A stretch of 6,654 nucleotides of DNA from a virus. Taxonomy: Duplodnaviria > Heunggongvirae > Uroviricota > Caudoviricetes. Position 1 is the first letter of the stretch. Every line of letters starts with the position of its first letter. Positions 1 to 6,654 of the stretch are shown in pieces. The translations under genes were made by a program, and so were the position numbers. Under the pieces are notes generated by a model that was not told where the DNA came from, did not search any database, and saw only the letters and a list, made by a program, of their open reading frames with translations. Location: positions 1-6,654 of IMG/VR virus record IMGVR_UViG_2585427741_000004; one strand, given 5' to 3'.

Positions 1-603
1 GCTTATTACAACATAAGGCAGGAGTTTAATTACTCAACTGAAATTACTGATTTCATGAAAGCGGTATATTTCCTGTATCTCAATCGTCACGGTTACCGTG
101 GTTTATGTCGCTATAACAAGAGCGGGCATTTCAACATTCCCTACGGTAATTATAAAAATCCGTATTTCCCTGAAAAAGAAATTCGCGCATTTGCAGAAAA
201 GGCCCAGCGAGCAACGTTTATCTGCGCCAGCTTTGATGAAACGCTGGCGATGTTGAAGGCGGGGGATGTGGTGTATTGCGATCCGCCGTATGACGGCACG
301 TTTTCCGGTTATCACACTGACGGCTTCACTGAAGATGACCAGTATCACCTGGCATCCGTTCTTGAATATCGATCATCAGAAGGTCATCCGGTCATTGTTT
401 CTAACAGTGACACATCCCTGATCCGTTCGCTGTATCGCAATTTCACTCACCACTACATCAAGGCAAAACGCAGCATCGGCGTGTCAGCTGGCGAGAGTAA
501 ATCTGCAACAGAAATCATTGCTGTTTCCGGGTCGCGCTGCTGGATGGGATTTGATCCTTCGCGTGGCGTGGATAGTTCTGCTGTGTACGAGGTGCGTGTA
601 TGA
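1..603 (+). CDS. dam: DNA adenine methyltransferase (Dam family, GATC N6-adenine MTase), 5'-truncated by the window edge
   Basis: Frame 1 is open from base 1 (no stop before the first Met at 55), so the gene starts upstream of the window. The translation closely parallels E. coli Dam as I recall it: [16 protein letters not shown]...FNIPYG.YK.PYFPEKE...FAEKAQ, then the catalytic motif IV DPPY (nt 277-288), then the HTDGFT and VIVSNSDT blocks. Stop TGA at 601-603. Confidence 0.88.
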
Positions 604-3014
604 GTCATGACGATATGAGCAACTCTAGCGGCTTTAACGAGGCTGCCGCAGCATTTTCATGGAACGGCCCGAAAAAGGCCATTAACCCTTATCTGGATCC
701 GGCGGAAGTTGCGCCGGAGTCTGCACTTTCAAACCTGATCACTCTGTACGCTGCCGATAACGAGCAGGAACAACTGCGCCGCGAGGCACTGAGTGAGCAG
801 GTCTGGGAGCGTTATTTCTTTAATGAATCCCGTGATCCTGTCCAGCGCGAAATGGAGCAGGATAAGCTCATTAGCCGGGCAAAGCTGGCGCATGAGCAGC
901 AGCGTTTTAACCCGGACATGGTCATTCTGGCAGATGTCAGCGCCCAGCCTTCTCATATCAGCAAGCCGCTGATGCAACGTATCGAATACTTCAGCAGCCT
1001 GGGCAGGCCAAAGGCTTATTCCCGCTATTTGCGTGAGACGATTAAGCCATGTCTGGAGCGACTGGATTGTGTACGTGACAGTCAGCTATCTGTTTCTTTC
1101 CGTTTTATGGCAAGCCATCAAGGGCTGGAGGGGCTGCTGATCCTGCCTGAAATGAGCCAGGATCAGGTGAAACGCCTGTCCACCCTGGTAGCAGCGCATA
1201 TGAGCATGTGTCTTGAGGCCGCTTGTGGTGATTTGTACGCCACCGATGACGTTAAGCCAGAAGAAATCCGCAAGACATGGGAAAAGGTGGCTGCGGAAAC
1301 CCTGCGTCTGGATGTTATCCCGCCTGCGTTTGAGAAACTTCGTCGGAAAAGAAACCGCCGCAAACCTGTGCCCTATGAACTCATACCGGGTTCGCTGGCA
1401 CGTATGCTTTGCGCCGACTGGTGGTATCGAAAATTGTGGAAGATGCGTTGCGAATGGCGGGAAGAGCAGTTGCGTGCTGTCTGTCTGGTCAGCAAAAAAG
1501 CATCTCCCTATGTCAGCTATGAAGCAGTGACGCATAAACGTGAGCAGCGCCGCAAGTCGCTGGAGTTTTTCCGTTCTCATGAACTGGTGAACGAAGACGG
1601 AGACACGCTGGATATGGAAGATGTGGTAAACGCCAGCAGCAGCAACCCGGCACATCGCCGCAATGAGATGATGGCCTGCGTTAAAGGTCTGGAGCTTATC
1701 GCGGAAATGCGCGGTGACTGCGCCGTTTTCTACACCATCACCTGTCCGTCACGTTTCCATTCCACGCTCAATAACGGCAGACCAAACCCGACCTGGACAA
1801 ATGCGACGGTAAGACAAAGCAGTGATTATCTGGTCGGCATGTTTGCTGCATTTCGTAAGGCGATGCACAAAGCCGGATTGCGGTGGTATGGCGTGCGGGT
1901 GGCTGAGCCGCATCATGACGGTACTGTGCACTGGCATCTCATGTGCTTCATGCGTAAAAAAGACCGCCGCGCCATCACTGCATTACTGCGTAAGTTTGCC
2001 ATCCGTGAAGACCGCGAGGAACTGGGCAATAACACGGGGCCACGCTTTAAGTCTGAGCTGATTAACCCGCGCAAAGGAACGCCGACAAGCTACATCGCGA
2101 AATACATCAGTAAGAACATTGACGGGCGTGGTCTGGCTGGCGAGATCAGCAAGGAAACGGGTAAATCTCTGCGTGATAACGCTGAATACGTTAATGCCTG
2201 GGCGTCTCTGCATCGTGTTCAGCAATTCCGCTTCTTTGGCATTCCGGGGCGTCAGGCTTACCGTGAACTGCGATTGCTGGCTGGTCAGGCGGCAAGGCAA
2301 CAGGGTGACAAAAAAGCAGGTGCACCGGTACTGGATAACCCGCGCCTTGATGCCATTCTGGCTGCAGCTGATGCTGGTTGTTTTGCCACCTACATCATGA
2401 AGCAGGGCGGCGTACTGGTTCCCCGTAAATATCACCTCATCAGAACCGCTTATGAAATCAACGAAGAGCCGACCGCCTATGGCGATCACGGCATTCGTAT
2501 TTATGGCATCTGGTCACCCATTGCAGAGGGTAAGATCTGCACTCATGCAGTGAAGTGGAAAATGGTTCGTAAGGCCGTTGACGTTCAGGAGGCGGCAGCC
2601 GACCAGGGCGCTTGCGCCCCTTGGACTCGTGGCAATAACTGTCCCCTTGCTGAAAATTTGAACCAACAGGAGAAAGATAAATCAGCTGATGGGGACACCA
2701 GAACGGATATTACCCGCATGGATGACAGGGAGTTGCACGATTACCTGCACAGTATGAACAAAAAAGAGCGCCGGGAACTGGCTGCAAGGTTACGTCTGGT
2801 GAAACCGAAACGGCGTAGAGACTACAAACAGCGAATTACAGACCATCAACGACAGCAGCTCGTCTATGAACTGAAGTCCAGAGGATTTGATGGCAGCGAG
2901 AAAGAGGTCGATTTACTCCTTCGCGGCGGCAGTATTCCATCAGGAGCAGGCTTGCGTATCTTCTATCGGAACCAGCGTCTGAAGGAAGATGATAAGTGGC
3001 GGAACCTGTATTAA
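600..3014 (+). CDS. A: Phage replication initiation endonuclease, P2 gpA-like (HUH rolling-circle initiator), 804 aa
   Basis: 2415-nt ORF. The ATG at 600 overlaps the dam stop (ATGA at 600-603) and has a GAGG Shine-Dalgarno at 589-592 with a 7-nt spacer. The translation carries an HUH-type metal-binding motif, VHWHLMCFM (HWH at nt 1929-1937, residues 444-446), and a paired-tyrosine motif, [12 protein letters not shown] (Tyr at nt 2091-2093 and 2103-2105, residues 498 and 502, Y-x-x-x-Y). These are the hallmarks of phiX174 gpA / P2 gpA superfamily nicking initiators. Size and position match P2/186 gene A. The start could alternatively be the Met at 615. Confidence 0.85.
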
Positions 3015-3083
3015 TTACGCGGGTTAACAATTCGTGCTCTTAATAATACCAGGAATATCAGGCCGATGAACGTAAAAAAACGT

Positions 3084-3110
3084 TTTACATCAGTAAGATT
3101 ATTATATACT
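3084..3110 (+). promoter_or_regulatory. Putative sigma70 promoter for the orf62-dinI cassette (-35 TTTACA at 3084-3089, -10 TATACT at 3105-3110)
   Basis: The -35-like hexamer TTTACA and -10-like hexamer TATACT lie in the AT-rich gap about 60 nt upstream of the orf62 start. The spacer is 15 nt, shorter than the optimal 17. The LexA box overlaps the -10 and the presumed start site. Exact hexamer assignment is uncertain. Confidence 0.35.
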
Positions 3111-3126
3111 GTAAATATAAACAGTG
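3107..3126 (+). promoter_or_regulatory. LexA operator (SOS box)
   Basis: TACTGTAAATATAAACAGTG has perfect CTGT (3109-3112) and ACAG (3121-3124) arms separated by an 8-nt AT-only spacer. It matches the E. coli LexA consensus TACTGTATATATATACAGTA at 17 of 20 positions, and it overlaps the putative -10. Confidence 0.75.
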
Positions 3127-3166
3127 GTTATGTATACAGTATTGCTTTGGTGTCATAGGAGGAAAG

Positions 3167-3355
3167 ATGCAGGACTATTTTTTGGAGTCTTTGAAGCTCC
3201 AGCGCATTGATTTTTTTCTTAAGCTTGTAGCGGCTAGTGAGTGTAGTGATGAAGAGAAGGGGCTGGCTCTGCAGTGGGTTTCTGAATTAACTGATGAACT
3301 CATGGCAAAAATCAGAACCCATGAATACAACCGCTCAATGGATGTCATCAGTTGA
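3167..3355 (+). CDS. Hypothetical small protein (62 aa), first gene of the SOS-controlled cassette
   Basis: ATG at 3167 is preceded by a strong Shine-Dalgarno AGGAGG at 3157-3162 (4-nt spacer). It sits immediately downstream of the LexA box and promoter and is followed 11 nt later by the DinI-like gene. The translation is acidic (SDEEKG, SELTDELMAK) and I recognise no family motif. Confidence 0.55.
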   Translation: MQDYFLESLKLQRIDFFLKLVAASECSDEEKGLALQWVSELTDELMAKIRTHEYNRSMDVIS

Positions 3356-3366
3356 GGTGACTTTTT

Positions 3367-3600
3367 ATGCGCATTGAAATAATGATCGATAAAGAGCAGA
3401 AGATTAGCCAGTCTACCCTGGACGCCCTTGAATACGAGCTTTACCGCAATCTGCGCCCCCTATATCCAAAAACGGTAATTCGCATCCGCAAAGGTAGCTC
3501 TAACGGTGTGGAACTGACCGGACTGCAACTGGACGAAGAAAGGAAGCAAGTGATGAAAATTATGCAGAAAGTGTGGGAAGACGACAGCTGGCTGCATTAA
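3367..3600 (+). CDS. dinI: DinI-family protein (DNA-damage-inducible protein I-like), 77 aa
   Basis: The translation MRIEIMIDKEQ...LDALEYELYRNL...YP...VIRIRKGS...ELTGLQLDEERKQVMKIMQKVWEDDSWLH aligns along its whole length with E. coli DinI as I recall it (MRIEVTIAKT...IDALAGELSRRI...FP...VSVRY...TKEDKQRISEILQETWESADDWFVSE). A GAGGTG Shine-Dalgarno lies about 8 nt upstream. A LexA box upstream is what a DinI-family gene is expected to have. Confidence 0.82.
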   Translation: MRIEIMIDKEQKISQSTLDALEYELYRNLRPLYPKTVIRIRKGSSNGVELTGLQLDEERKQVMKIMQKVWEDDSWLH

Positions 3601-3734
3601 GAAACGTTGCTGGCGTCTGAACTTGCTTCTGGCGTCAGCAAGGTTGAACAACGAGCTGTGCGAGGCGTTAGCTCTGTGGTGCATGTCTATACCGCATGAG
3701 ATCGCATGATCGTTTGAGGATCGTTTTTGCTCAG

Positions 3735-3758
3735 GCCCGCCAGAACTGGCGGGCTTTT
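3735..3758 (+). terminator. Rho-independent terminator closing the orf62-dinI cassette
   Basis: A perfect 9-bp GC-rich stem, GCCCGCCAG (3735-3743) and CTGGCGGGC (3746-3754), with a 2-nt AA loop, followed directly by TTTT (3755-3758). Confidence 0.75.
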
Positions 3759-3803
3759 GCGTAGATCATGCAGGTGCATGAAAACCACTACATAAAGCGG
3801 GCA

Positions 3804-3822
3804 GGCGTGGCGGGGATACGAG
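3804..3822. other. Candidate cos (cohesive end) site of a P2/186-like phage
   Basis: GGCGTGGCGGGGATACGAG is a 19-nt GC-rich motif in the non-coding gap between convergent terminators, exactly where P2-family phages place cos (between the right-end accessory genes and Q). From memory the P2 cohesive end is GGCGAGGCGGGGAAAGCAC and the 186 end begins GGCGTGGCGGGGA. The first 13 nt here match that pattern. The comparison relies on recalled sequences and was not computed. Confidence 0.5.
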
Positions 3823-3910
3823 CGCGCGCAACGGGGTAAAATGGCCAAAATCCGGCACAGCCTCTGGCCCGCTGGCGGCCTCATTTAGTGGAGGGGGGGA
3901 GATGTCAGGG

Positions 3911-3947
3911 CAAAAAGAAACGCCCCGCAGAATGCTGCTGAGGCGTT
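3911..3947 (-). terminator. Putative rho-independent terminator downstream of the portal gene (- strand)
   Basis: On the - strand, a hairpin with AACGCC / GGCGTT outer arms (+ coordinates 3919-3947, with an inner GCAG/CTGC stem) is followed by a T-rich run TCTTTTT (the + strand A-run at 3911-3918). It lies about 36 nt past the Q stop codon. The stem is imperfect. Confidence 0.45.
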
Positions 3948-3982
3948 GTGAGAGTTGGTCGGTTATTGATGTTATGAGTATG

Positions 3983-5023
3983 TCAGCTTCGTTTGCCCTT
4001 AAGTCCTAAGTCATAGGCTTCAAAACGGATAACCTCTTCATCCAGCCAGTCATTCAGCTCCTGCAGTCGCTTTTGCAGGGGCATCAGTTCATTGCGGACG
4101 AAGACACGGCTCGCTTTTTCCACATCCCCAAAGCCGCCAGTGTTGTTGGGAATGATGCCCATCATTTGCGGCGGTACGCGGTGAGCCGCCATCATGTCAT
4201 CGCGGCTGACGTTCTTGATGTTCAGAAATTCATCCTTCGCCGCGACTTCCGACAACGGGATAATCTGAATGCCATCTTTTTTGCCGTTAGGCGAGTACAT
4301 AAACAGGTTGCGGAAGTTGCCCGGTCCTTTAGCACTTTTCATTGCCTTGCGGATGTTGTTCACATCCTCCTGGTTCTGTGCGGCGTCGGTCATGTACATG
4401 ATGAAGCCTGCGTGGCTGCCGTTAATGTAATACTTGCGGCGGAACAGCGTGGCGGATTCGTTGAGCAGAGCTGACGGAATGGCAGAAAGGTAACCCGGCA
4501 GACCATAAATCTCCTGGTTGATATCCGGCTCCATCAGGTGGAAGACGTTACCTTTTGTGAACTGATACGGCTGTGTCGTCAGGCTGTATTGCACAAACCA
4601 GTATGTTTCAAGGTCAAGCCCGCGTCGGGTGTATTTTGCCAGTGCAGGCTCCAGCGAAATAACTTCACCAAAGCGGTTCGTGCGTTTCTCCAGGTAGGCG
4701 TTACCAAAAACCAGATAGTCCTGCACAAAACGGGTAAATGCCTGCTGGCTGAGAAGGCGATGTGGAATATAGGTACTGCTGATAATGTCACGCTTAACAC
4801 TGATCGGGGAGCTGTGGTGCACGGCGGCGCGGAAGGTGCGCGCCAGTCCGTCAAAGCTGACGGGCGGCTCATACCAGCGATCCATCTGTACGCATTCCAC
4901 ATAGTCCAGCAGTTCGCGGCGGTCCAGTACAGGAATGGGATCACCAAAGCTGAAAGCCTCCGCAACGGGTTTTTTAGTTTCTTCTGCAGTTACGGTTTCG
5001 CCTGGCGCGATATGTTCTTTCAT
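3983..5023 (-). CDS. Q: Phage portal protein (P2 gpQ-like), about 346 aa
   Basis: Large - strand ORF whose size and position (immediately downstream of the large terminase gene, next to cos) match the portal gene Q of P2-family phages. The likely start is the ATG at 5023-5021 (MKEHIAPGE...). The ORF track begins one codon upstream at a TTG. The start overlaps the terminase stop (ATGA). Confidence 0.78.
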   Translation of the reverse strand: MKEHIAPGETVTAEETKKPVAEAFSFGDPIPVLDRRELLDYVECVQMDRWYEPPVSFDGLARTFRAAVHHSSPISVKRDIISSTYIPHRLLSQQAFTRFVQDYLVFGNAYLEKRTNRFGEVISLEPALAKYTRRGLDLETYWFVQYSLTTQPYQFTKGNVFHLMEPDINQEIYGLPGYLSAIPSALLNESATLFRRKYYINGSHAGFIMYMTDAAQNQEDVNNIRKAMKSAKGPGNFRNLFMYSPNGKKDGIQIIPLSEVAAKDEFLNIKNVSRDDMMAAHRVPPQMMGIIPNNTGGFGDVEKASRVFVRNELMPLQKRLQELNDWLDEEVIRFEAYDLGLKGKRS

Positions 5024-6654
5024 CAAAAAATCTCCACAATATTGCTGGTATTGGCGGACTCGCCCTGCAGCGGTTCGTTAAACAGTGCGTGCATTGTTGC
5101 CCAGGCCAGATCGGCATGGCTGGCTTCTTCGCTGCGGCTGGCTTCATAGGTCGGGCGGTTGCCACTGGCAGTGGTAGCGCGACGGATTGCCATAAATGAC
5201 TGCGCAATGTCGGTGTGCCCGGCGTCAAACTCCAGACGGCGGTGGCTGATAATGTCGTAGGCCTTGAGTACCAGGGCGTTTTTAACGTTGGGGTTGTAGA
5301 CAAACTCCCTGACGGCAGGAAAAAACGCTTTCACGTTCTCGTAAACCCCGTGACCGACGCCGGTCGAGTCGATGCCGATATAGGTCACGTTGTACTGTTC
5401 GGTCAGTTTTTTGATGGCGTCAGCCTGGGCGCGGAAGTCCATTCCGCGCCACTGGTGACGCTCAAGAATGCGGAACTTACCGCCCGGCACGGCTGGCGGC
5501 GCCACCACCACGCATCCGGCGCTGTCGCCGTTCTGCGTACCTTTCGCCGGGTCATAACCGATCCACACTTCGCGCCAGCCAAACGGGCGCAGGGCCAGTG
5601 CATGAAAGTCGGTCCAGACTTCCCAACTGTCCACCATGCACGCCTGCAGCTCGCTGAGTGGGAACACAGACGCGAGATCGTCCACGAACTCACACATCAG
5701 CAGGTTCTGGTATTCGTCCGGGCTGTACTCCATGCGCAACTGGTCGAGGTCGAACAGGTTACAGCCGCCGCGCACCGCATCTTCCACAGTGACTATCTGG
5801 CGGTACTGCCCGTCTGCGCACAGCAGGCCGGGGGCCAGATTGCTGTGGGACCGGTCGATGTCCACCTTATCGGCTTTGTTGCGCCCTCGGTTGAACAGCG
5901 CACCGGACCAGAACGGATAAGCACTGTGTGTCAGGCTGGATGGCGTGGAAAAATAGGTTTGTCGCCATTTTTTGTGAATAGCCATACCGGAAGCCACTTT
6001 GCGCAGCTCCTGGAATTTCGGTATCCAGAAATATTCATCCAGATACAGGTTGCCGTGGTAACTCTGGGCCGTGCGGGCATTGGTGCCGAGGAAGTACAGC
6101 GTGGCCCCGTTAGGAAGCACCATCGGATCGCCTTTCAGCTCCACCTCCACTTCTTTGGCGAAGTCGATGATGTACTGCTTAAAGACGTGGGCCTGAGCCT
6201 TGCTGGCGGAAAGGAAAATCTGGTTACGCCCGGTTAGCAGGGCGTCAATCAGGGCTTCACGGGCAAAATAGAAGGTCGCACCGATCTGGCGTGACTTCAG
6301 CAGGTTGCGGATGCGGTTGGTTTTTCCGGCTTCCCACCAGTGGCGCTGGTAGTTGAACATGGAGGAATGGAAGATTTCTTCCAGCTTCTCAATCTGTTCA
6401 TCGGTGAAAACGTTCTTTTCCGGCTGACGACGCGGGCCTTTGTTGCGGTTGGCGACGTTAGGGTTTAAGTCGGCTTCGTTGCCGCCATTGTTAAACTTGC
6501 CGATCCGCGCATGGCGCTCCGACTGGCGCGCCAGCAGGTCAATCTCTTTGAAATCTTTCCCTTCTTTGTGCTCCTTCATAATGAGCTGGCAGTAGCGTGC
6601 GGCGGTGGTGAGCTGCATCTGATCCAGCGGCCCATAGTCACCCCACTTGTCGCG
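5023..6654 (-). CDS. P: Terminase large (ATPase) subunit, P2 gpP-like, N-terminus beyond the window
   Basis: The - strand frame is open from the window edge (6654) to a TGA stop at 5025-5023. The 12 codons upstream of the first in-window Met (6618) contain no stop, so the true start lies outside the window. Gene order P then Q on the same strand, with coupled stop/start, matches the P2 late operon. The assignment rests on size, synteny and overall resemblance to P2-family terminases; I did not verify a Walker motif. Confidence 0.75.
   Translation of the reverse strand, partial: RDKWGDYGPLDQMQLTTAARYCQLIMKEHKEGKDFKEIDLLARQSERHARIGKFNNGGNEADLNPNVANRNKGPRRQPEKNVFTDEQIEKLEEIFHSSMFNYQRHWWEAGKTNRIRNLLKSRQIGATFYFAREALIDALLTGRNQIFLSASKAQAHVFKQYIIDFAKEVEVELKGDPMVLPNGATLYFLGTNARTAQSYHGNLYLDEYFWIPKFQELRKVASGMAIHKKWRQTYFSTPSSLTHSAYPFWSGALFNRGRNKADKVDIDRSHSNLAPGLLCADGQYRQIVTVEDAVRGGCNLFDLDQLRMEYSPDEYQNLLMCEFVDDLASVFPLSELQACMVDSWEVWTDFHALALRPFGWREVWIGYDPAKGTQNGDSAGCVVVAPPAVPGGKFRILERHQWRGMDFRAQADAIKKLTEQYNVTYIGIDSTGVGHGVYENVKAFFPAVREFVYNPNVKNALVLKAYDIISHRRLEFDAGHTDIAQSFMAIRRATTASGNRPTYEASRSEEASHADLAWATMHALFNEPLQGESANTSNIVEIF

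What the first reader, a model, noticed from the sequence alone, without database searches (positions are those of the whole stretch)
3107..3126. Near-consensus LexA box overlapping the cassette promoter
CTGT-N8-ACAG with an AT-only spacer, 17 of 20 matches to the consensus, placed over the -10 and start region of the only promoter-like sequence upstream of orf62. This predicts tight repression in uninduced lysogens and a burst of expression on DNA damage, tying the accessory cassette directly to host stress signalling.
Basis: seen in the sequence. Interest (0 to 1): 0.5.

Follow-up and report, generated by a model that had tools for sequence, protein, structure and literature searches.

The report
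LexA operator of prophage induction switch

Summary
The site is real. TACTGTAAATATAAACAGTG at 3107-3126 is the only CTGT-N8-ACAG in the window and matches the LexA consensus at 17 of 20 positions. No shuffle of 200 gave such a match. It scores better than about 89% of reference E. coli LexA sites.

The window is a Fels-2/186-like (Peduoviridae) prophage: dam, replication gene A, orf62, a DinI-like orf77, cos, portal and terminase. The box overlaps the -10 of a conserved promoter (TTTACA-N17-TACTGT). This matches the annotated LexA-repressed p95 promoter of phage 186.

orf62 is not accessory cargo. It is 61/62 identical to the gene called tum in the E. coli HS prophage DuoHS. Published work shows that deleting that gene, or making lexA non-cleavable, abolishes mitomycin C induction.

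This geometry equals the ColE1 colicin double operator. It is present in 31 of 43 distinct related promoters, while the flanking sequence diverges. Phage 186 and PSP3 have a single box.

The mechanism is already known. The conserved double operator is a modest detail that I did not find described in the papers I could search.

The parts
3074..3080 (+). A-tract just upstream of the -35 hexamer, possibly an UP-like element
   Evidence: Read directly. The A-run is largely conserved in the 31 double-box promoters (mean identity 0.79 over the 10 nt upstream of the -35). The function is inferred only.
3084..3089 (+). -35 hexamer TTTACA of the p95-like SOS promoter
   Evidence: Invariant in the 8-phage alignment. 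Mean identity is 0.97 across 31 unique promoters, against 0.65 for the adjacent 17-nt spacer. It corresponds in position to the annotated -35 TTCACA of 186 p95.
3107..3112 (+). -10 hexamer TACTGT, 17 nt from the -35; it is also the left arm of LexA box 1
   Evidence: This is the same hexamer annotated as the p95 -10 in the phage 186 record. Mean identity is 0.99 across relatives. An alternative -10, TATACT at 3105-3110, would need a 15-nt spacer. The transcription start (about 3119) is not mapped.
3107..3126 (.). LexA box 1 (the finding): TACTGTAAATATAAACAGTG
   Evidence: It is identical in E. coli HS DuoHS, Fels-2 and Cartapus. It is present in nearly all of 37 genome loci from many Enterobacterales genera.
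3122..3141 (.). LexA box 2: CAGTGGTTATGTATACAGTA. It is weaker, is offset by 15 bp, and its 16-mer core shares G3124 with box 1.
   Evidence: It is the second-best site in the window, with HI-like score 8.9-9.9 (next best 13.7); 3 of 200 shuffles reached 9.9 or lower. The geometry is the same as the ColE1 cea double operator CTGTATATAAAACCAGTGGTTATATGTACAG. ACAGTGG is conserved at 0.94 and the right arm ACAGT at 0.98, against 0.55 for the 14 nt downstream.
3157..3162 (+). Shine-Dalgarno sequence AGGAGG of orf62
   Evidence: Invariant in alignment A2. It lies 4 nt before the ATG at 3167.
3167..3355 (+). orf62, a tumA-type gene (the antirepressor half of a split tum)
   Evidence: 61/62 identical to ECHS_RS04495, the gene deleted as 'tum' in DuoHS. 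It matches phrog_698 at 3.6e-38. The N-terminal half of 186 Tum hits the same profile at 2.4e-5 in register, and both proteins hit phrog_8554 and phrog_1993. It occupies the same position as PSP3 tumA. BLASTP against 186 Tum and PSP3 TumA finds nothing.
3367..3600 (+). orf77, a DinI-like protein (tumB type; equivalent to the C-terminal half of 186 Tum)
   Evidence: Pfam DinI at 1.9e-22. 41% identical to residues 71-145 of 186 Tum, E = 3e-24. The Fels-2 homologue is annotated as similar to PsP3 TumB.
3735..3758 (+). Probable intrinsic terminator of the SOS operon: GCCCGCCAG-AA-CTGGCGGGC followed by TTTT
   Evidence: The fold has -22.5 kcal/mol and z = -3.9; 0 of 200 shuffles folded as well. Sequence read. 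Its role is inferred by analogy with t95a/t95b of phage 186.

Best explanation
The finding is the promoter-proximal LexA operator of the SOS operon of a Fels-2/186-like temperate phage. This operon is the equivalent of p95-tum in coliphage 186.

In a lysogen, host LexA binds box 1 (3107-3126), which covers the -10 hexamer and the predicted start site. It very probably also binds the overlapping weaker box 2 (3122-3141), which covers roughly +3 to +22. Together they would block RNA polymerase at the TTTACA-N17-TACTGT promoter.

DNA damage activates RecA, LexA cleaves itself, and the promoter fires. orf62 (the TumA-type antirepressor) and orf77 (a DinI-like protein) are then made. The antirepressor inactivates the 186-type CI repressor, which cannot cleave itself, and the prophage enters lytic growth.

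The double overlapping operator is the design used by colicin operons. [quoted passage not shown]

Shown here:
- the sequence features and their statistical significance;
- their conservation across relatives;
- homology of the module to the tum region of 186, PSP3, Fels-2 and DuoHS.

Taken from the literature: LexA and tum dependence of induction in DuoHS, 186 and Fels-2.

Inferred: LexA occupancy of this exact DNA, simultaneous occupancy of both boxes, the transcription start site, and the CI target.
For: Sequence and statistics.

Module identity:
- Gene A, orf62, the DinI-like gene and the portal gene lie in 186/Fels-2 order.
- The region is 96% identical to Fels-2 STM2728/STM2726.1.
- The phage 186 record annotates the p95 -35, the -10 (TACTGT) and a LexA site over the -10 at the equivalent place.

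Function of orf62:
- It is 98% identical to DuoHS tum, whose deletion blocks mitomycin C induction, as does lexA(Ind-) (PMC12055606).
- PHROG cross-hits link it to the N-terminal half of 186 Tum.
- Lemire 2011 states that Fels-2 and PSP3 carry tum split into an antirepressor gene and a DinI gene (PMC3121763).
- A lexA null is lethal in Salmonella LT2 because of Fels-2 (cited).

CI type: repressors of related prophages are 186-type (PF07022 + PF16452) with no significant S24 peptidase domain.

Conservation: the -35, box 1, ACAGTGG and the box 2 right arm are conserved at 0.94-0.99 while spacers and leader are at 0.55-0.65, in 31 unique promoters from many Enterobacterales genera.

Colicin parallel: ColE1 has the same 31-nt architecture. 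Colicin double boxes bind two LexA dimers and give no detectable basal expression (PMC2994835).

In DuoHS and the O177:H21 prophage these two boxes are the only strong sites near the module.
Against: - There is no binding or expression data for this exact sequence.
- The heterology matrix was rebuilt from sites recalled from memory, not taken from Lewis et al. 1994, so absolute values are approximate.
- orf62 has no BLASTP-detectable similarity to 186 Tum or PSP3 TumA. The shallow profile-profile comparison is weak (E = 0.009, probability 4%).
- The window does not include the CI gene, so the repressor type is known only from relatives.
- The left arm of box 2 is GTGG instead of CTGT. The 'double' class was selected by requiring CAG at the box 2 right arm, so part of that conservation is by construction.
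- The -10 assignment (TACTGT at 17 nt or TATACT at 15 nt) and the start site are not mapped.
Confidence: 0.88

Rival explanations
1. The operator is single. Only box 1 binds LexA. The conserved 3122-3141 sequence is kept for another reason, such as the initial transcribed sequence, an mRNA leader element, or the site of another phage or host protein.
For: The left arm of box 2 is GTGG, 2 of 4 matches to CTGT. Its score of 8.9-9.9 is in the weaker third of the reference sites. Phage 186, PSP3 and the Pantoea/Erwinia/Tatumella relatives work with, or at least carry, one box only.
Against: The conserved bases are exactly the LexA contact arms at the correct 16-mer spacing (ACAGT 0.98, GTGG within ACAGTGG 0.94), whereas the leader beyond is at 0.55. 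The same GTGG-N8-ACAG second box, offset by 15 bp, is a bona fide LexA site in ColE1, with a published HI of 11.06 for the proximal box. The predicted leader RNA has no stable fold (z = +1.41).
Confidence: 0.25
2. This is the first reader's reading: orf62 and orf77 are an accessory (moron-like) cassette placed under SOS control, with no role in the phage's own life cycle.
For: orf62 is annotated as 'hypothetical protein' in every record, and orf77 is a DinI homologue that could simply modulate host RecA. No Pfam family matches orf62.
Against: The module sits at the conserved tum position of 186, PSP3 and Fels-2. The 98%-identical gene is required for mitomycin C induction of DuoHS. PHROG profiles link orf62 to the antirepressor half of Tum. 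The gene pair is conserved across many genera, whereas true cargo downstream of it varies.
Confidence: 0.04
3. The site is a chance AT-rich palindrome in an AT-rich intergenic region and has no regulatory function.
For: The intergenic region is AT-rich (GC 0.38-0.42), which raises the chance of TA-rich palindromes. CTGT-N8-ACAG alone appeared in 15 of 200 shuffles.
Against: The full 20-mer match appeared in 0 of 200 shuffles, and so did an HI-like score of 5.2 or lower. The arms are near-invariant across divergent genera while the neighbouring bases vary. The boxes degenerate together with the gene in a decaying copy (L053).
Confidence: 0.01

Closest known systems
p95-tum SOS operon of coliphage 186 (Lamont 1989; Brumby 1996; Shearwin 1998; GenBank NC_001317 annotation)
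   Same: Both lie between replication gene A and cos/portal. In both, a LexA box overlaps a TACTGT -10 hexamer, with a TT(T/C)ACA -35 placed 17-18 nt upstream. In both, the product is an antirepressor plus a DinI-like moiety, acting on a 186-type non-cleavable CI.
   Different: 186 Tum is one 146-aa fusion protein; here it is split into 62-aa and 77-aa genes. The antirepressor half is too diverged for BLASTP. 186 has a single near-perfect box and a 19-nt gap to the start codon; here there are two overlapping boxes and a 40-nt gap from box 1 to the start codon.
tum of E. coli HS prophage DuoHS, and Fels-2 STM2728/STM2726.1 of Salmonella LT2
   Same: This is essentially the same element. Box 1 is identical in both. 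orf62 is 61/62 identical in both DuoHS and Fels-2. The region is 96% identical in DNA to Fels-2. Both carry the same double operator. Induction of DuoHS requires tum and cleavable LexA.
   Different: A few substitutions fall in the spacer of box 2: TTATGTAT here, TTATACAT in DuoHS, TTATATGT in Fels-2. The cargo genes between the DinI-like gene and the portal gene are present in those phages and absent here.
Double overlapping SOS boxes of colicin operons (ColE1 cea; Ebina 1983; Lu and Chak 1996)
   Same: Both have two 20-mers offset by 15 bp that share CAGTG. The first has a CTGT arm and the second a GTGG arm. Both lie at or just downstream of the -10. The Fels-2 version is identical to ColE1 over 22 consecutive bases, covering box 2 plus TT. 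In both, the controlled product is lethal to the cell.
   Different: The genes and replicon are unrelated, and the promoter upstream of the boxes is not alignable. Whether the resemblance is convergence under LexA constraint or a shared module is unknown. Two-dimer binding has not been shown for the phage site.
LexA-controlled antirepressor operons of Gifsy/Fels-1 prophages and N15 antC
   Same: The logic is the same: a LexA-repressed small antirepressor inactivates a non-cleavable repressor, and the operon includes a dinI homologue (PMC3121763).
   Different: The phage families differ. In Gifsy the gene order is reversed (dinI first). The antirepressor proteins are not detectably related.

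Membership tests
Gammaproteobacterial LexA (SOS) box | A 16-bp palindromic core CTGT-N8-ACAG within the 20-bp consensus TACTG(TA)5CAGTA | tested here: met
   Box 1 has a perfect core and 17/20 matches overall. Box 2 has GTGG-N8-ACAG and 15/20 matches.
Gammaproteobacterial LexA (SOS) box | Heterology index within the range of sites that bind LexA (about 12.6 or lower on the Lewis 1994 scale, recalled from memory) | tested here: met
   On my own matrix, built from 27 recalled E. coli sites, box 1 scores 4.2-5.1 and box 2 scores 8.9-9.9. Leave-one-out scores of the reference sites have median 7.2 and maximum 12.5. On the same matrix the ColE1 boxes score 5.25 and 8.5, against published values of 7.48 and 11.06. 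The original Lewis matrix was not available, so absolute values are approximate.
Gammaproteobacterial LexA (SOS) box | The site overlaps or adjoins the core promoter of the regulated gene | tested here: met
   In TTTACA-N17-TACTGT the -10 lies inside box 1. The arrangement is conserved and is homologous to the annotated 186 p95. The start site is not mapped.
Gammaproteobacterial LexA (SOS) box | Physical binding of LexA and LexA-dependent transcription | not testable with these tools
   The only evidence is indirect. lexA(Ind-) blocks induction of DuoHS, which has an identical box 1. 186 p95 is described as LexA-regulated.
186-type SOS (tum) operon of Peduoviridae | Located between replication gene A and cos/portal and transcribed rightward from its own promoter | tested here: met
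   Gene A lies at 600-3014, the module at 3084-3600, a cos-like site at 3804-3822, and the portal gene at 3983-5026 on the minus strand. The order matches 186, PSP3 and Fels-2.
186-type SOS (tum) operon of Peduoviridae | The first product is homologous to the antirepressor (N-terminal) half of Tum / TumA | tested here: inconclusive
   BLASTP is negative and hhalign on shallow alignments is weak (E = 0.009). However, the PHROG HMMs cross-hit in register: 186 Tum against phrog_698 at 2.4e-5, orf62 against phrog_1993 at 2.2e-3, and both against phrog_8554 at 1e-8 to 1e-11. The functional equivalence comes from the DuoHS delta-tum genetics.
186-type SOS (tum) operon of Peduoviridae | A DinI-like moiety, either fused or encoded by the next gene | tested here: met
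   orf77 matches Pfam DinI at 1.9e-22 and is 41% identical to 186 Tum residues 71-145.
186-type SOS (tum) operon of Peduoviridae | The cognate immunity repressor is 186-type CI without RecA-stimulated self-cleavage | tested here: inconclusive
   The window does not contain cI. In related prophages (E. coli PE15 and O177:H21) CI matches PF07022 + PF16452, with Peptidase_S24 below the cut-off (16.3 against 23.3 bits).
Colicin-type double overlapping SOS operator | Two LexA boxes offset by 15 bp whose 16-mer cores share one base, with the second box carrying a degenerate left arm | tested here: met
   The pattern CTGT-N9-CAGTGG-N8-ACAG is found in the window, in nine fetched relatives and in ColE1.
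Colicin-type double overlapping SOS operator | Both boxes are maintained by selection | tested here: met
   31 of 43 unique related promoters keep both boxes. The arms are conserved at 0.94-0.99 and the flanks at 0.55-0.65. Caveat: the class was defined by requiring CAG at the box 2 right arm.
Colicin-type double overlapping SOS operator | Simultaneous or cooperative binding of two LexA dimers | not testable with these tools
   This needs a footprint or an EMSA stoichiometry measurement.

The most novel reading that the evidence does not exclude
Felsduovirus-type phages (Fels-2, DuoHS, SopEPhi and many prophages of Escherichia, Salmonella, Klebsiella, Citrobacter, Enterobacter and Serratia) may have replaced the single LexA box of the 186/PSP3 tum promoter with a colicin-type double overlapping operator that binds two LexA dimers. 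This would set a higher DNA-damage threshold and a later, more switch-like induction than in 186. It would also lower spontaneous induction.
Probability: 0.45. Interest if true: 0.35.

Novelty: already known. Interest (0 to 1): 0.2.

Why it matters
The site identifies where host SOS signalling enters this prophage. It governs induction, and therefore phage release and horizontal transfer, rather than expression of a cargo gene. This mechanism has been established for phage 186 since 1989, for Fels-2 since 2002 and for the near-identical DuoHS since 2025, so the box adds no new biology.

The one point worth a small follow-up is the conserved colicin-like double operator. It is a natural single-box versus double-box comparison (186/PSP3 against the Fels-2 type) for studying how operator architecture tunes the threshold and timing of prophage induction. 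The relevant genomes are very common: about 1,100 of 5,426 complete E. coli genomes carry this region.

Tried and rejected
- Strict sigma-70 scan of 2900-4000: no hit, because TACTGT scores only 3/6 as a -10. The promoter was instead defined by homology to annotated 186 p95 and by conservation.
- BLASTP of orf62 against 186 Tum and PSP3 TumA: no alignment. hhalign of two shallow alignments: weak, E = 0.009. I relied on the PHROG cross-hits and the DuoHS genetics instead.
- Pfam on orf62 and on the minus-strand ORF at 3687-3884: nothing.
- Rfam scan of the whole window at gathering threshold: no RNA family.
- Hairpin spanning the orf62 stop codon and the orf77 ribosome-binding site (3343-3361), flagged by the terminator scan: not better than shuffles (z = -0.85), so not proposed as an attenuator.
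- Leader RNA at 3119-3170: no stable structure (z = +1.41).
- Bunny 2002 and Lamont 1989 could not be read because they are not held.
- No held paper gave the Lewis heterology matrix or the site list, so I rebuilt a matrix from memory.
- Exact source of the window: the best complete E. coli genome is 97.2% identical over the whole window. The promoter/orf62 stretch is identical in Escherichia sp. MOD1-EC7003 (L019). The source remains unresolved and does not affect the conclusion.
- Search for the 186 cos 19-mer with 3 or fewer mismatches: no match. The site at 3804-3822 has 4 mismatches.

Full report

Positions 3107-3126 read TACTGTAAATATAAACAGTG.
- CTGT-N8-ACAG occurs once in the window, at 3109-3124. 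On its own this is not rare: 15 of 200 dinucleotide-preserving shuffles contain one.
- The 20-mer differs from the consensus TACTGTATATATATACAGTA at three positions, so 17/20 is correct. No shuffle of 200 gave such a match.
- The original heterology-index matrix was not in any paper I could read. I rebuilt an HI-style score from 27 E. coli LexA sites recalled from memory (Lewis 1994; Fernandez de Henestrosa 2000). The absolute values are therefore approximate.
- On that matrix the site scores 4.2-5.1. It is the best site in the window (window mean 36.5) and better than 89% of the reference sites scored leave-one-out (median 7.2, maximum 12.5). No mononucleotide shuffle of 200 reached it.

**2. 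What is the surrounding element?**

The window encodes, in order:
- the 3' part of a Dam methylase gene (55-603);
- a P2/186-type replication protein A (600-3014; Pfam Phage_GPA, 3.5e-128);
- orf62 (3167-3355);
- orf77 (3367-3600; Pfam DinI, 1.9e-22);
- on the other strand, the portal gene (3983-5026) and the large terminase gene (5023-6618).

Region 2950-3700 is 96% identical to Salmonella phage Fels-2 (STM2728 and STM2726.1, the latter annotated as similar to PsP3 TumB). It is found in about 1,100 of 5,426 complete E. coli genomes and in many Klebsiella, Salmonella and Yersinia Peduoviridae.

In coliphage 186 the same position, between gene A and cos, holds the SOS operon. The GenBank record annotates promoter p95 (-35 TTCACA, -10 TACTGT), a LexA site that starts on the -10, and the tum gene, noted as 'expression repressed by LexA; inhibits CI DNA binding'.

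The window has the same anatomy: TTTACA (3084-3089), a 17-nt spacer, and TACTGT (3107-3112), which is the left arm of the box. The start site (about 3119) is inferred, not mapped.

**3. What do orf62 and orf77 do?**

Lemire et al. (PMC3121763) summarise the background:
- 186 Tum is a LexA-controlled antirepressor of 146 aa whose second half resembles DinI.
- Fels-2 and PSP3 have tum split by a stop codon.

orf77 is 41% identical to residues 71-145 of 186 Tum (E = 3e-24).

orf62 shows no BLASTP similarity to the N-terminal half of 186 Tum or to PSP3 TumA. This is plausible for a protein that must co-evolve with its repressor. PHROG profiles do connect them, and the matches are in register:
- orf62 matches phrog_698 (3.6e-38), phrog_8554 (2.4e-8) and phrog_1993 (2.2e-3);
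- 186 Tum matches phrog_1993 (1e-22), phrog_8554 (1.4e-11) and phrog_698 (2.4e-5).

The decisive evidence is published genetics. [quoted passage not shown] I fetched that locus:
- ECHS_RS04495 is the 62-aa 'hypothetical protein' immediately upstream of the DinI-like gene.
- It is 61/62 identical to orf62.
- Its promoter carries an identical box 1.

Further supporting points from the literature and from related prophages:
- A lexA null is lethal in Salmonella LT2 because of Fels-2 (Bunny 2002, cited).
- The tum gene of the P2-like prophage BTP5 is that prophage's most expressed transcript, particularly under nitric oxide shock (PMC7067206).
- CI repressors of related prophages are 186-type (PF07022 + PF16452) with no significant S24 protease domain. 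This explains why an antirepressor is needed.

So orf62 and orf77 are the phage's induction switch, not an accessory cassette.

**4.

Immediately downstream lies CAGTGGTTATGTATACAGTA (3122-3141).
- It overlaps box 1 by five bases, and the two 16-mer cores share G3124.
- It is the second-best LexA-like site in the window, with an HI-like score of 8.9-9.9. The next best site scores 13.7. A score of 9.9 or lower appeared in 3 of 200 shuffles.
- The geometry is that of the double overlapping SOS boxes of colicin operons. I fetched plasmid ColE1 and found CTGTATATAAAACCAGTGGTTATATGTACAG just upstream of cea. On my matrix those boxes score 5.25 and 8.5. The published HI values are 7.48 and 11.06 (PMC2994835).
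- The Fels-2 version is identical to ColE1 over 22 consecutive bases.

[quoted passage not shown] The same paper reports that they show no detectable basal expression.

**5. Is the second box conserved?**

Among phages, the double operator is present in Fels-2, Cartapus, SopEPhi, SEN8 (a GTAG variant), Yersinia MLG42 and two Klebsiella phages whose orf62-orf77 coding region is only 79-80% identical to the window's. In these the -35, TATACTGTA, CAGT.G and TACAG are invariant, while the 17-nt spacer and the leader differ.

A scan of one genome per species returned 37 loci encoding orf62 relatives. They come from Escherichia, Citrobacter, Enterobacter, Klebsiella, Serratia, Kluyvera, Raoultella, Leclercia, Lelliottia, Buttiauxella, Pantoea, Erwinia, Tatumella and others.

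I anchored these and the phage loci on the promoter, which gave 43 unique sequences. Of these, 31 have the double operator. Mean identity to the consensus in those 31:

| Region | Mean identity |
|---|---|
| -35 hexamer | 0.97 |
| 17-nt spacer | 0.65 |
| TACTGT (box 1 left arm) | 0.99 |
| ACAGTGG (box 1 right arm + box 2 left arm) | 0.94 |
| ACAGT (box 2 right arm) | 0.98 |
| next 14 nt downstream | 0.55 |

Caveat: membership of the 'double' class required CAG at the box 2 right arm, so part of that figure is by construction. The GTGG arm, the flanking A and T, and the frequency of 31/43 are not.

Other patterns in the survey:
- Pantoea, Erwinia and Tatumella relatives have one box, as do 186, PSP3, SEN1, SW9, Midge and RCIP0057; the Pantoea and Erwinia copies and these Eganvirus-type phages also have a short gap of about 20 nt to the start codon.
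- A decaying copy in Siccibacter has a truncated gene and degenerate boxes.

**6. Mechanism.**

Best explanation (confidence about 0.88 for box 1 as the LexA operator of the tum promoter, and about 0.65-0.75 for functional two-dimer occupancy):
- LexA on box 1 occludes the -10 and the start site.
- A second dimer on box 2 covers about +3 to +22.
- RecA-stimulated LexA cleavage frees the promoter.
- TumA (orf62) inactivates CI, and the DinI-like orf77 probably modulates RecA.
- Transcription probably ends at the GC-rich hairpin plus TTTT at 3735-3758 (-22.5 kcal/mol, z = -3.9).

Shown here: sequence, statistics, conservation and homology. From the literature: LexA and tum dependence in near-identical and related phages. 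Inferred: binding to this DNA, stoichiometry, start site, CI target and terminator use.

**7. Rivals.**
- Single operator, with box 2 conserved for another reason (about 0.25). This concerns box 2 only.
It is contradicted by the DuoHS genetics and by the conserved position of the module.
- Chance palindrome (about 0.01).

**8. Novelty and score.**

The finding itself is already known. It is the same operator as in DuoHS and Fels-2, and the same mechanism as 186 p95-tum.

The conserved colicin-type double operator in the Fels-2 group, against a single box in the 186/PSP3 group, is something I did not find described in the searchable literature. The most relevant paper, Bunny 2002, could not be read. 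It is a modest refinement and not a new kind of system.

Interest: 0.2.

Noticed in passing
L018 2835-2854 (E. coli HS prophage DuoHS, outside the window): There is a second strong LexA-like box, CACTGGTTATACATACAGTA on the int-coding strand, with HI-like score 4.2. It lies about 30 nt upstream of the integrase start codon, inside a TTGACA...TAAAAA(T) promoter-like context. It is absent from the otherwise similar O177:H21 prophage. It may put int under direct SOS control in some relatives.
   Followed up: no
window 3804-3822: GGCGTGGCGGGGATACGAG matches the annotated 19-nt cohesive end of phage 186 (GGCGTGGCGGGGAAAGCAT) at 15 of 19 positions, and the first 13 are identical. It is probably the cos site of this prophage. 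A search allowing 3 mismatches missed it.
   Followed up: partly
window 3606-3644: A long, near-perfect hairpin lies directly after the orf77 stop codon (-21.6 kcal/mol, z = -4.06; 0 of 200 shuffles folded as well). It has no T-run. Its function is unknown. It could be a processing or stability element, or a partial terminator like t95a of 186.
   Followed up: partly
window 3601-3982, compared with L001, L002 and L017: The interval between the DinI-like gene and the portal gene holds no convincing gene here. The 65-aa minus-strand ORF at 3687-3884 has no family hit. Fels-2, E. coli HS and PE15 carry one or two extra genes of unknown function at this position, so it is a variable cargo slot.
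   Followed up: no
L001 3156-3190 and L016 5063-5097: Fels-2 and plasmid ColE1 share 22 identical consecutive bases, CAGTGGTTATATGTACAGTATT. Their double operators are 33/37 identical although the flanks are unrelated. It was not resolved whether this is convergence under LexA constraint or an exchanged module.
   Followed up: partly
L041-L049 and L052 (Pantoea, Erwinia, Tatumella and Izhakiella loci): orf62 relatives in the Pantoea, Erwinia, Tatumella and Izhakiella loci have a single LexA box. In the Pantoea and Erwinia loci (L043-L049) the box ends only 20-21 nt before the start codon, as in phage 186; in Tatumella and Izhakiella the gap is 42-77 nt. In Enterobacteriaceae the double box with a 45-49-nt gap predominates. 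My quick scan found no adjacent DinI-like ORF in many of these single-box loci, but this was not checked carefully.
   Followed up: partly
L053 (Siccibacter turicensis) and L050 (Dryocola): These are decaying copies. L053 has a 20-codon truncated orf62 and a degenerate operator (HI-like score 14.1). L050 has lost the ATG and is frameshifted but still keeps both boxes.
   Followed up: no
window 3343-3361: A small hairpin spans the orf62 stop codon and the orf77 Shine-Dalgarno sequence and is followed by TTTTT. The terminator scan flagged it, but it is not more stable than shuffles (z = -0.85). It could still couple orf77 translation to orf62.
   Followed up: partly
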